A model generated the notes under the pieces. It searched no databases. It saw nothing but the letters and a program-made list of their open reading frames with translations, and had not been told where the DNA came from. Below are positions 30,173 through 32,491 of a stretch of 64,000 bases of DNA, piece by piece. Origin of the DNA: Escherichia coli. Its GTDB lineage: Bacteria > Pseudomonadota > Gammaproteobacteria > Enterobacterales > Enterobacteriaceae. Position 1 is the stretch's first letter; every line of letters begins with the position of its first letter. Position numbers and translations under genes: made by a program. The stretch lies in assembly GCF_022846255.1 (NCBI RefSeq), contig NZ_AP025682.1; one strand, 5' to 3'.

Positions 30173-30194
30173 TTTCTGCTTTCGTAATAAATCA

Positions 30195-30224
30195 CGGCCC
30201 AGCATGCGAATGCCGGGCCGTTTT
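30195..30224 (+). terminator. Hairpin terminator between convergent grpE and yfjD
   Basis: CGGCCCAGCAT-GCGA-ATGCCGGGCCG followed by TTTT; possibly bidirectional. Confidence 0.6.
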
Positions 30225-30226
30225 CG

Positions 30227-31489
30227 TTACTCCGCCACACTCTCGCGCAGCGGTTTTACAGGAAAAACTTTTACCTGCTTAATCATATTGTCCTGTACGT
30301 CGAGAATATCGATATCGTACTCGCCTATACGCACGCGGGTGCCTGCTACCGGGATCTCCTCCAGCGCTTCCAGAATGACGCCGTTAACAGTACGAGCATC
30401 ATCTTCCGGTAGATGCCAGTTAAAGGCTTTGTTAATTTCTCGCACGTTGGCAGTGCCATCAATAATCACCGAACCGTCGTTTTGCGGCGTGACCTCTTCG
30501 GCAAGTGTTGGCGACATCGACGTGGTGAAATCGCCGACAATCTCTTCGAGAATATCTTCGACCGTCACCAGTCCCTGAATGTCTCCATACTCGTTGACGA
30601 CCAGGCCGACTTTCTTTTTGTTGCGCTGAAACTTCACCAACTGTGTGCTGAGCGGCGTACCCTCCGGGACAAAATAGATCTCGTCCGCGGCGCGTAGCAT
30701 GGTTTCTTTGGTGAACTCTTTTTTCTCCGACATGAGTCGCCAGGCTTCACGCACACGCAGCATACTGATGGCGTCGTCCAGCGAATCACGGTAGAGCACG
30801 ATGCGCCCGTGAGGTGAGTGGGAGAGTTGGCGCAGAATCGATTTCCAGTCATCGTTGATATCAATACCGATAATTTCACTGCGCGGCACCATGATGTCAT
30901 CGACGGTCATCTTTTCCAGATCGAGCACCGACAGCAGCATATCCTGATTGCGACGGGAAATTTGTGAGCGTGATTCGTGCACGATGGTACGCAACTCTTC
31001 TTTGCTTAAAGAGCCGCTAACCACGATATCGGTTTTGATGCCCATCATGCGCATTAACATGCGGGTAATAGCATTCAGCAACCAGACCAGCGGCATCATC
31101 AAAATTTGCAGCGGAGCCAGTAGAAAACTACTCGGATAAGCGACTTTTTCCGGGTACAGCGCGGCAATGGTTTTCGGCAATACCTCAGCAAAAACCAGTA
31201 CGACAAAAGTCAGCACACCAGTTGCAATTGCCACGCCCGCATCGCCGTACAAACGCATCCCAACAATAGTGCCGAGCGCGGAGGCAAGAATATTGACCAG
31301 GTTATTGCCGATTAACACCAGGCTTATCAGGCGGTCTGGCTTACGCAGCAATTTTTCGACGCGTTTGGCCGAGCGATTACCCTGTTTCGCCATATGTCGA
31401 AGACGATAGCGGTTGAGAGTCATCATTCCGGTTTCGGACCCGGAAAAATAGGCTGAAATGACCACCATGATGATCAGAATAATGATCAA
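30227..31489 (-). CDS. yfjD: CorB/HlyC-family membrane protein YfjD (DUF21 + CBS pair + CorC_HlyC); coordinates are the minimal TTG-initiated ORF
   Basis: Translation recognised; N-terminus uncertain (see findings): the only Shine-Dalgarno sequence lies upstream of an in-frame CTG at 31511-31513. Confidence 0.85.
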   Translation of the reverse strand: MIIILIIMVVISAYFSGSETGMMTLNRYRLRHMAKQGNRSAKRVEKLLRKPDRLISLVLIGNNLVNILASALGTIVGMRLYGDAGVAIATGVLTFVVLVFAEVLPKTIAALYPEKVAYPSSFLLAPLQILMMPLVWLLNAITRMLMRMMGIKTDIVVSGSLSKEELRTIVHESRSQISRRNQDMLLSVLDLEKMTVDDIMVPRSEIIGIDINDDWKSILRQLSHSPHGRIVLYRDSLDDAISMLRVREAWRLMSEKKEFTKETMLRAADEIYFVPEGTPLSTQLVKFQRNKKKVGLVVNEYGDIQGLVTVEDILEEIVGDFTTSMSPTLAEEVTPQNDGSVIIDGTANVREINKAFNWHLPEDDARTVNGVILEALEEIPVAGTRVRIGEYDIDILDVQDNMIKQVKVFPVKPLRESVAE

Positions 31490-31533
31490 CGTAGTAGTAG
31501 AAATGTGTTCCAGGGGAAACTCCTTTTCTGGGG

Positions 31534-32325
31534 TTAGCTGATTAACTGCTGGACAATTCGGCTGCCGAAGTAGGCCAGTGTCAGAATGACTGCACCCGCA
31601 ACGTTAAACCAGACGACGCGGCGTCCACGCCATCCTTCATGATAATGTCCCCACAGCAGCACAATATAGACAAACCACGCCACGATAGAGAGCACGGCCT
31701 TGTCGATATTTTCCATGCTAAATAAGTTGTGCATGTAGAACAGGCCAGTGCAAAGAGTGAGCGTTAGCAGCACCACGCCAATCTGCGTGATATGGAACAT
31801 TTTACGCTCGATACTCATCAATGGAGGCATTTCCTGGTTAAACGCCAGCTTCTTGTTCTTCAGTTGGTAATCAATCCACGCCAGTTGCAGCGCGTACAGG
31901 GCAGCGATAATTAGCGTGGCATAGGAAAAAAGCGATAAGCCAATGTGCACCAGCATCCCCGGCGTTGCTTCCAGATGGGTGATGTATTCATTGGGCATAA
32001 AGGTCGCCAGCGCCAGGTTGATAAGCGCAAAGGCATAGACAATGGGTAGCAACAACCAGCCACGATTGCGAGAAGCCACAATGGTCATTACCGTACAGAT
32101 CATCAAACTGACCAATGAACCAACGTTCAGCAGGCTGAGGTTTTGTCCGCTATCACCGTCGGGCAGGATGCGGGCTTCCAGAGCGATTGCGTGGCAGACC
32201 AGCGCGATGACCGCAGAAATAATAGCCATGCGCCGCCAGCCGCCGTTTTTTTGCAGCAGACCGGGAACAATCAGCGCAAGACTGACGGAGTAGGCGACAA
32301 GCGCGAGCAGAGCAAAAACGGGCAT
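31534..32325 (-). CDS. ypjD: Inner membrane protein YpjD (CcmC/CcsA-like family, 263 aa)
   Basis: Translation recognised; start set at MPVFALLALVAY..., 25 codons inside the ORF-track start. Confidence 0.8.
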   Translation of the reverse strand: MPVFALLALVAYSVSLALIVPGLLQKNGGWRRMAIISAVIALVCHAIALEARILPDGDSGQNLSLLNVGSLVSLMICTVMTIVASRNRGWLLLPIVYAFALINLALATFMPNEYITHLEATPGMLVHIGLSLFSYATLIIAALYALQLAWIDYQLKNKKLAFNQEMPPLMSIERKMFHITQIGVVLLTLTLCTGLFYMHNLFSMENIDKAVLSIVAWFVYIVLLWGHYHEGWRGRRVVWFNVAGAVILTLAYFGSRIVQQLIS

Positions 32326-32491
32326 AGTAATGTCGACAGTTTGAGCAATAAGAAAGAGAAGCAGTATAGCGTCAGGTGAACGCTGCTCCAACCGTTGCAT
32401 AACAACAAAGACGCCTTCATGTTATACTGCGGCAAAATACTGATGATGTGTCGCGATTGCGGCCAACCGTTTCCACCCCAGGCGAGAGACA

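What the first reader, a model, noticed from the sequence alone, without database searches (positions are those of the whole stretch)
31487..31524. yfjD: the only Shine-Dalgarno-supported start position carries CTG
The longest ATG/GTG/TTG-initiated ORF starts at TTG 31487-31489 (MIIILIIMVV...), which would put the first transmembrane helix at the very N-terminus and has no ribosome-binding site. Eight codons upstream, in frame, a codon at 31511-31513 reads CTG on the coding strand, and a GGAG (31520-31523) sits 6 nt upstream of it, giving a more typical N-terminus (x-EHISTTT-LIIILII...) and, by my recollection, the 428-aa length annotated for K-12 YfjD. Either this strain initiates at a rare CTG, or it has a start-codon substitution relative to strains with ATG/GTG there and reinitiates at the downstream TTG.
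Basis: inference. Interest (0 to 1): 0.3.

Follow-up and report, generated by a model that had tools for sequence, protein, structure and literature searches.

The report
Known CTG start codon of yfjD
The membrane-transporter gene yfjD (corB) starts translation at a rare CTG codon behind a strong ribosome-binding site; this is real, shared by essentially every E. coli genome, and was already documented and annotated for the K-12 reference, so it is ordinary for this species.

Summary
On the minus strand, AAGGAG (31525-31520), a 6-nt spacer and CTG (31513-31511) lie eight codons upstream of, and in frame with, TTG 31489-31487.

It is not specific to this strain. MG1655 has the identical sequence, and RefSeq annotates yfjD (b4461, 428 aa) as starting at that CTG. 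Of the 5,425 complete E. coli genomes that carry the locus, 5,424 have CTG. None has ATG, GTG or TTG in the same flanking context.

[quoted passage not shown] It also reports that mutating the TTG at codon 9 had no effect.

My comparison of 79 other enterobacterial species agrees:
- Codon 1 is CTG (36), TTG (30) or GTG (13), and never ATG.
- Codon 9 is a non-initiating Leu codon in 71 of 79.
- Codons 2-8 vary almost only at third positions.
- The sequence upstream of codon 1 shows no coding pattern.

The "strain-specific substitution with reinitiation at TTG" option is wrong.

One modest addition: CTG starts co-occur with a full GGAG (G at -7) and a CCC just before the codon, while TTG/GTG starts have a weaker GGAH.

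Verdict: already known, low interest.

The parts
31511..31513 (-). CTG (CUG) initiation codon of yfjD/corB, codon 1 of the 428-aa protein
   Evidence: Sequence read. RefSeq places the CDS start here in STEC299, K-12 CETR3G40, ChlosBP-23-1 and MG1655 b4461. EcoGene 3.0 reports mutagenesis confirmation. CTG is present in 5,424 E. coli genomes. The homologous codon is CTG, TTG or GTG in 79 other species.
31520..31525 (-). Shine-Dalgarno AAGGAG, with six potential base pairs to the 16S rRNA 3' end
   Evidence: The AAGGA core is conserved in nearly all 79 species. The final G (position -7) is present in 32 of 36 CTG species. By the gapped GGAG definition 1 of 43 non-CTG species has it; counted at fixed position -7, none does.
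31514..31519 (-). 6-nt pyrimidine spacer TTTCCC between the SD and the start; 7 nt (one extra C) in 331 O157:H7-type genomes
   Evidence: The CCC at -3..-1 is nearly invariant in CTG species (35, 33 and 34 of 36). A 1-nt indel here is tolerated, which shows the stretch is untranslated.
30227..31513 (-). yfjD (corB) coding sequence, 428 aa plus stop; CNNM/CorB-type HlyC/CorC family transporter
   Evidence: Pfam matches: CNNM 11-184, CBS 278-326, CorC_HlyC 344-418.
31487..31489 (-). TTG, codon 9: an internal leucine codon that was formerly annotated as the start
   Evidence: It is CTG, CTC, CTA, CTT or TTA in 72 of 79 species. EcoGene states that mutating it had no effect on expression.
31490..31510 (-). 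Codons 2-8 (E H I S T T T), a translated N-terminal segment
   Evidence: Minor-allele counts by codon position are 4/1/125 across 79 species, which indicates purifying selection on the amino acids.
31466..31468 (-). ATG, codon 16: an internal Met that some public records use as the start (413-aa form)
31534..32325 (-). ypjD (cytochrome c assembly family protein), the upstream gene; its stop TAA (31536-31534) lies 20 nt before the yfjD CTG
   Evidence: RefSeq coordinates carried over; Pfam Cytochrom_C_asm match.
30194..30221 (-). Terminator-like GC-rich hairpin just after the yfjD stop
   Evidence: Consensus scan only.

Best explanation
yfjD (the corB orthologue, a CNNM/CorB-type transporter) is translated from the CUG at 31513-31511. 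A 30S subunit is positioned by the strong SD AAGGAG six nucleotides upstream. Initiator fMet-tRNA then reads CUG with a first-position C-U mismatch, so the protein starts Met-Glu-His-Ile-Ser-Thr-Thr-Thr-Leu and is 428 aa long. The TTG eight codons downstream is an ordinary internal leucine codon. This is the normal, conserved state of the gene in E. coli and in about half of the Enterobacteriaceae sampled, not a mutation of this strain. It is already in the K-12 reference annotation. Because CUG is a very poor start codon, the arrangement probably keeps transporter synthesis low. The full GGAG and the CCC before the codon partly offset the weak codon. Shown here: the sequence, the annotation, conservation, the coding signature of codons 2-8, and the non-coding signature upstream. 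Taken from the literature: mutagenesis confirmation, and the low efficiency of CUG. Inferred: low expression as the selected outcome, and compensation by the SD.
For: The window sequence is identical to MG1655 from the SD through codon 20. RefSeq starts the 1,287-nt yfjD CDS at the CTG in MG1655 (b4461, YP_026171.3) and three other genomes. [quoted passage not shown] E. coli counts: 5,093 genomes with the exact 30-mer plus 331 with one extra C in the spacer, all CTG; 0 with ATG, GTG or TTG. In 79 other species codon 1 is always NTG (CTG 36, TTG 30, GTG 13) at a constant distance from AAGGA, and codon 9 is TTG in only 7. Variation in codons 2-8 is 4/1/125 by codon position, against 204/241/227 upstream. 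An in-frame stop lies within 10 codons upstream in 64 of 79 species. CTG goes with GGAG in 32 of 36 species, against 1 of 43 for the other starts. Of 9 independent contrasts, 7 are concordant, 1 is reversed and 1 is tied. None of 3,000 randomly evolved traits was as coincident with the start trait on the tree. Published figures put CUG at 0.86% of AUG output and 0.024% of bacterial starts (PMC11497404).
Against: The experimental confirmation is cited in EcoGene 3.0 as unpublished results, so the data cannot be inspected. I could not retrieve any Ribo-RET or N-terminal proteomics record for yfjD. Minor additional initiation at the TTG (codon 9) or ATG (codon 16) is not excluded by comparative data. 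The compensation claim rests on a single-gene NJ tree. Positions -7, -2 and +1 are only 8 nt apart, so tree error or recombination could mimic repeated co-evolution. Background sites reach a mutual information of 0.37 bits, against 0.75 and 0.60 for -7 and -2.
Confidence: 0.9

Rival explanations
1. The real start is the TTG at 31489-31487 (420-aa protein), and the GGAG-CTG arrangement upstream is fortuitous.
For: It is the first canonical start codon in the frame. It was the earlier K-12 annotation. The 420-aa form is still present in public records on 389 contigs. GGAG-N5-8-CTG motifs are no more frequent than chance in the window.
Against: The TTG has no SD. Codon 9 is a non-initiating Leu codon in 71 of 79 species and TTA in one more. 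Codons 2-8 are under amino-acid-level purifying selection (4/1/125). In species with a TTG or GTG at codon 1, that codon is the only possible start. EcoGene reports that mutating the TTG had no effect.
Confidence: 0.03
2. There is dual initiation: most protein starts at the CUG, but a minor proteoform starts at the TTG (codon 9) or ATG (codon 16), possibly under stress, for example after MazF cleavage at the ACA in codons 3-4.
For: CUG is intrinsically weak. In E. coli both a TTG and an ATG lie downstream in frame. The MazF-regulon study lists yfjD as cleaved at an ACA 17 nt before 'the start', which fits only the ACA at 31506-31504 relative to the TTG.
Against: Neither downstream codon has an SD. 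A shorter form would begin inside transmembrane helix 1. The TTG is not conserved. EcoGene saw no effect of the TTG mutation. The reading of the MazF table is my inference, and it most likely reflects only the older annotation.
Confidence: 0.05
3. It is a strain-specific start-codon mutation or a sequencing error at 31513.
For: None beyond the general rarity of CTG starts.
Against: The same base is present in 5,424 of the 5,425 complete E. coli genomes that carry the locus, including MG1655, W3110, O157:H7 and Nissle 1917. No ATG, GTG or TTG allele was found in this flanking context.
Confidence: 0.005
4. Initiation at the CUG depends on translational coupling: ribosomes that terminate at the ypjD stop 20 nt upstream reinitiate without full start-codon scrutiny.
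For: The ypjD stop lies 12-30 nt before codon 1 in 73 of 79 species. No promoter-like site was found inside ypjD.
Against: Six species (Raoultella, one Citrobacter amalonaticus, Intestinirhabdus, one Enterobacter sp.) have 104-159 nt between the ypjD stop and yfjD, and all six still use CTG with GGAG. The short gap is equally typical of the TTG and GTG species. According to EcoGene, the fusion constructs expressed from the CTG.
Confidence: 0.15

Closest known systems
E. coli K-12 yfjD (b4461) CTG start as curated by EcoGene 3.0 and RefSeq NC_000913.3
   Same: Same gene, and the same nucleotide sequence from the SD through the first 20 codons. The 100%-matching STEC299 record and a K-12 record share the protein accession WP_010723175.1.
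   Different: Nothing relevant. The window differs from MG1655 by one intergenic base (C instead of A just after the ypjD stop, 31533).
[quoted passage not shown]
   Same: A chromosomal E. coli gene whose annotated and tested start is CUG read by initiator tRNA.
   Different: An unrelated gene and protein. I did not examine the hda initiation region here.
infC and pcnB AUU starts (IF3-discriminated non-canonical starts; from general knowledge)
   Same: A conserved weak, non-canonical start codon that keeps translation low and should be sensitive to IF3 discrimination.
   Different: For infC the weak codon is the basis of autoregulation by IF3. No such regulatory loop is known or shown for yfjD, and the codon is CUG rather than AUU.
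Start-codon/SD compensatory evolution (Belinky, Rogozin and Koonin 2017, PMC5622118)
   Same: Weaker start codons are associated with stronger or more conserved SD sequences, and with coupling to positions -1 to -3. yfjD shows G at -7 and C at -2 with CTG.
   Different: That study found switches to CUG to be extremely rare (1-2 events per thousands to tens of thousands of starts). At yfjD about 9 CTG/non-CTG switches are inferred within one family.

Membership tests
Documented CTG-initiated yfjD of E. coli (EcoGene 3.0 / RefSeq) | Orthology with K-12 yfjD b4461 in the ffh-ypjD-yfjD-grpE context | tested here: met
   The same gene order is seen, and the protein accession WP_010723175.1 is shared by the 100%-matching STEC299 record and a K-12 record.
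Documented CTG-initiated yfjD of E. coli (EcoGene 3.0 / RefSeq) | The same SD-spacer-CTG sequence at the annotated start | tested here: met
   AAAGGAGTTTCCCCTGGAACAC is identical in the window and MG1655. The RefSeq CDS begins at the C of the CTG.
Documented CTG-initiated yfjD of E. coli (EcoGene 3.0 / RefSeq) | Translation actually starts at the CTG and not at the TTG | not testable with these tools
   [quoted passage not shown] Comparative evidence supports it indirectly.
CNNM/CorB (HlyC/CorC family) transporters | CNNM (DUF21) transmembrane domain, CBS pair and C-terminal CorC_HlyC domain | tested here: met
   Pfam CNNM 8e-54, CBS 9.9e-09, CorC_HlyC 2.3e-19, all above the gathering thresholds.
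Strain-specific start-codon loss with downstream reinitiation | Related strains carry a canonical start (ATG, GTG or TTG) at the homologous position | tested here: not met
   No E. coli genome has ATG, GTG or TTG in this flanking context, and 5,424 have CTG.
Translationally coupled (termination-reinitiation) gene pairs | The downstream start lies next to the upstream stop, and its use depends on upstream translation | tested here: inconclusive
   The gap is 20 nt here and 12-30 nt in 73 of 79 species, but six CTG species have gaps of 104-159 nt. Dependence on ypjD translation cannot be tested with these tools.
IF3-sensitive regulatory non-canonical starts (infC type) | Expression responds to IF3 level through discrimination at the start codon | not testable with these tools
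   No data were obtained. This is inferred only from general knowledge of IF3 discrimination against CUG.

The most novel reading that the evidence does not exclude
The yfjD/corB start may be an unusually labile, selection-balanced initiation region. Within the Enterobacteriaceae the first codon has switched about nine times between CUG and UUG/GUG and is never AUG. Each state comes with its own context: CUG with a full GGAG and CCC at -3..-1, and UUG/GUG with the weaker GGAH and a variable spacer. That pattern implies stabilising selection for a low, fixed level of CorB synthesis. It would make this gene a natural series for measuring how SD strength and the -3..-1 context rescue CUG initiation.
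Probability: 0.4. Interest if true: 0.3.

Novelty: already known. Interest (0 to 1): 0.12.

Why it matters
The case has mainly practical value. yfjD is one of only two experimentally supported CTG starts in E. coli K-12. Gene callers that allow only ATG, GTG and TTG truncate the protein: public collections hold 428-, 420- and 413-aa versions of the same protein. Analyses that used the old TTG start can also mislabel the first 24 coding nucleotides as 5' UTR, as the MazF-regulon table apparently did. Biologically, a conserved CUG start implies that synthesis of this CNNM/CorB-type transporter is kept very low. The covariation with the SD is a small natural example of compensation within an initiation region. 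Nothing here is new about the start codon itself.

Tried and rejected
- Strain-specific mutation: rejected by exact-word counts in 5,426 genomes.
- TTG as the true start: rejected on comparative grounds and on the literature.
- Special mRNA structure around the start: an 89-nt fold gives -12.3 kcal/mol against -12.6 +/- 2.8 for shuffles, z = 0.12, so there is nothing special.
- Internal promoter for yfjD inside ypjD: no promoter-like site on the minus strand. This is a weak negative from a consensus scan.
- Strict dependence on coupling to the ypjD stop: weakened by six CTG species with 104-159-nt gaps.
- Independent initiation-profiling or N-terminomics evidence: the Ribo-RET preprint text does not mention yfjD and no supplements are held. 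The Salmonella riboproteogenomics paper and the PIRT-seq paper do not mention it either.
- Literature search for yfjD: 11 papers, of which only EcoGene 3.0 addresses the start codon.
- I did not run the large protein homology searches or structure prediction, because they could not change the verdict.

Full report
**1. The observation**

Reading the minus strand of the window gives: ypjD stop TAA (31536-31534), CCCCAGAA, AAGGAG (31525-31520), TTTCCC (31519-31514), CTG (31513-31511), GAA CAC ATT TCT ACT ACT ACG, TTG (31489-31487), ATC ATT ATT CTG ATC ATC ATG (31468-31466).

All the coordinates in the finding are correct:
- The longest ORF with a canonical start is 420 aa from the TTG.
- The frame upstream has no ATG, GTG or TTG back to the preceding in-frame stop.
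- The CTG lies eight codons upstream of the TTG, so a CTG start gives 428 aa.
- GGAG lies six nucleotides before the CTG, and nothing resembling an SD precedes the TTG.

The motif alone carries no statistical weight. GGAG-N5-8-CTG occurs 25 times in the window against 22 expected, and AAGGAG-N6-CTG occurs once against 0.29 expected. Whether the site means anything has to be settled by context and comparison.

**2. What other E. coli genomes show**

A 261-nt query around the site hits 5,425 of 5,426 complete E. coli genomes, always under the features ypjD and yfjD. The window is 100% identical over this stretch to strain STEC299.

RefSeq annotates yfjD as a 1,287-nt CDS (428 aa) in four records:
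- STEC299
- a K-12 derivative
- a divergent Gambian isolate (ChlosBP-23-1)
- the curated MG1655 record (b4461, 2748774..2750060, YP_026171.3)

Reading the MG1655 sequence shows that this CDS begins at the same CTG, preceded by the same AAAGGAGTTTCCC.

I then used 30-mers in which any mismatch near the codon destroys every 28-nt seed word. The exact CTG context is present in 5,093 genomes. The ATG, GTG and TTG versions are present in none. A further 331 genomes, O157:H7 and relatives, carry one extra C in the spacer, GGAG-TTTCCCC-CTG. Together these make 5,424 of the 5,425 genomes that carry the locus.

The 1-nt indel in the spacer, and a 9-nt duplication further upstream in ChlosBP-23-1, would shift or disrupt any reading frame that began upstream of the CTG. 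That stretch is therefore untranslated.

**3. Published evidence**

EcoGene 3.0 (Zhou and Rudd, Nucleic Acids Res 2013, PMC3531124) has a section headed "CTG start codon verification". [quoted passage not shown] It says the CTG start of yfjD was predicted from sequence conservation and inspection of the ribosome-binding site. [quoted passage not shown] Rudd, unpublished).

The finding is therefore a rediscovery of a curated feature of the reference genome. The underlying data are unpublished. I could find no Ribo-RET or N-terminomics record for the gene.

**4. Independent comparative test**

A scan of one genome per species returned 80 loci from Enterobacteriaceae at 87-100% protein identity. 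I analysed 79 of them, leaving out one locus that was cut at the 5' end.

At the homologous first codon, 36 species have CTG, 30 have TTG, 13 have GTG and none has ATG. The codon always sits at a constant distance from an AAGGA core. At codon 9, only 7 species have TTG. The rest have CTG, CTC, CTA, CTT or TTA, so that position is simply a leucine.

Variation in codons 2-8 (E-H-I-S-T-T-T) falls almost entirely on third positions. Minor-allele counts by codon position are 4, 1 and 125. The 21 nt upstream show no periodicity (204, 241, 227). In 64 of 79 species an in-frame stop lies within ten codons upstream.

Translation must therefore begin at codon 1 in every lineage. In the lineages with TTG or GTG there, that codon is the only available start. 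This reproduces and extends the reasoning behind the EcoGene prediction.

**5. Mechanism**

From established knowledge, near-cognate starts are read by fMet-tRNAfMet, here with a C-U mismatch at the first codon position. A recent structural paper summarises CUG as giving about 0.86% of AUG output (GUG 58%, UUG 30%). It also states that CUG accounts for 0.024% of bacterial starts and forms less stable 30S and 70S initiation complexes (PMC11497404). The CUG should therefore hold synthesis of this CNNM/CorB-type transporter low (Pfam CNNM, CBS and CorC_HlyC domains).

The initiation region looks tuned to make the codon usable:
- The SD is a six-base AAGGAG at near-optimal spacing.
- The region is not more structured than shuffled controls (z = 0.12).

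Close coupling to ypjD does not seem to be required. The gap between the ypjD stop and codon 1 is 12-30 nt in 73 species. Six species have gaps of 104-159 nt, and all six use CTG with GGAG.

**6. A modest addition: covariation between context and start codon**

CTG co-occurs with a full GGAG in 32 of 36 species, while TTG and GTG have GGAG in 1 of 43. Scored position by position, -7 carries 0.75 bits about the start class. It is G in 32 of 36 CTG species, and A or T in all non-CTG species when positions are counted without gaps. Position -2 carries 0.60 bits, being C in 33 of 36 CTG species against 4 of 43. Other variable sites carry 0.0-0.37 bits.

On an NJ tree of the coding sequence, the start class and the SD class each need 9 parsimony steps, but together they need only 11. 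Of nine phylogenetically independent contrasts, 7 are concordant, 1 is reversed and 1 is tied. None of 3,000 traits evolved at random on the same tree was as coincident with the start trait.

There are caveats:
- The tree is a single-gene NJ tree.
- The sites are within 8 nt of each other, so tree error or recombination would move them together.
- Background mutual information is not zero.

I regard compensation as likely but not proven. The general phenomenon is known: weaker start codons go with a stronger or more conserved SD, and with coupling to positions -1 to -3 (Belinky et al. 2017, PMC5622118). That study found switches to CUG to be vanishingly rare, so the roughly nine switches at this one gene stand out somewhat.

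**7. Annotation consequences**

The public protein collection holds the same protein with three N-termini:

| Form | Start used | Contigs | Examples |
|---|---|---|---|
| 428 aa | CTG | at least 1,000 | YFJD_ECOLI, RefSeq |
| 420 aa | TTG (codon 9) | 389 | B7UH61_ECO27, Shigella sonnei Ss046 |
| 413 aa | ATG (codon 16) | 438 | magnesium/cobalt efflux protein [E. coli] |

The MazF-regulon study lists yfjD as cleaved at an ACA 17 nt before the start codon. No ACA lies upstream of the CTG. The only ACA that fits is at 31506-31504, in codons 3-4, exactly 17 nt before the TTG. That entry therefore most likely reflects the older annotation, and the cleavage lies inside the coding sequence. This is my inference.

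**8. Verdict**

The "rare CTG start" reading is correct, and the "strain-specific substitution with reinitiation at the TTG" reading is refuted. The feature is already known and annotated, so novelty is nil for the start codon itself and interest is low. The only new element is the lineage-level covariation of the start codon with positions -7 and -2, which would be a small, testable example of compensation within an initiation region.

Noticed in passing
window 31504-31508 (minus strand, codons 2-4 of yfjD): The MazF-regulon paper (PMC5001579, Table 1) lists yfjD as cleaved at an ACA 17 nt before the start. No ACA lies upstream of the CTG. The ACA at 31506-31504 is exactly 17 nt before the old TTG start, so the reported '5' UTR' cleavage apparently lies inside the CDS as now annotated.
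   Followed up: partly
window 31466-31513 (minus strand): Public protein collections hold three N-termini for this same protein: 428 aa (CTG, at least 1,000 contigs), 420 aa (TTG, 389 contigs) and 413 aa (ATG at codon 16, 438 contigs). This looks like a systematic truncation by gene callers that do not allow CTG.
   Followed up: yes
window 31514-31519; L085 and L087: 331 E. coli genomes (O157:H7 and relatives) carry one extra C in the SD-start spacer, giving 7 nt instead of 6. The start is still annotated at the CTG. Any effect on initiation efficiency is unknown.
   Followed up: partly
L003:1605-1625 (E. coli ChlosBP-23-1), homologous to window about 31528-31536: A 9-nt tandem duplication, TAACCCCAG, that includes the ypjD stop codon lengthens the ypjD-yfjD intergenic region from 20 to 29 nt.
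   Followed up: no
L010, L020, L025, L026, L027, L037 (upstream of position 1501): Six species (Raoultella spp., one Citrobacter amalonaticus, Intestinirhabdus alba, Enterobacter sp. 10-1) have 104-159 nt between the ypjD stop and yfjD instead of 12-30 nt. All six have CTG plus GGAG. I did not examine what the inserted sequence is.
   Followed up: no
positions -3..-1 before codon 1 in loci L005-L084; window 31514-31516: Species with a CTG start keep an almost invariant CCC immediately before the codon (35, 33 and 34 of 36), while TTG and GTG species vary there. Position -2 carries 0.60 bits about the start class. I know of no mechanistic reason for this.
   Followed up: partly
window 31534-32400 (minus strand), ypjD: The neighbouring gene also has an ambiguous start. 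The longest ORF is 288 aa from ATG 32400, but RefSeq annotates 263 aa from 32325. Both lengths occur in public records.
   Followed up: no
protein collection cluster returned: The 90%-identity cluster that contains YfjD (10,782 members) also lists YpjD proteins (263 and 288 aa). These are unrelated in sequence, which suggests the cluster was chained through fused or mis-called ypjD-yfjD predictions.
   Followed up: no
window 30194-30221 (minus strand): A 12-bp GC-rich terminator-like hairpin lies immediately after the yfjD stop, in the gap facing the convergent grpE. It may serve both genes.
   Followed up: no
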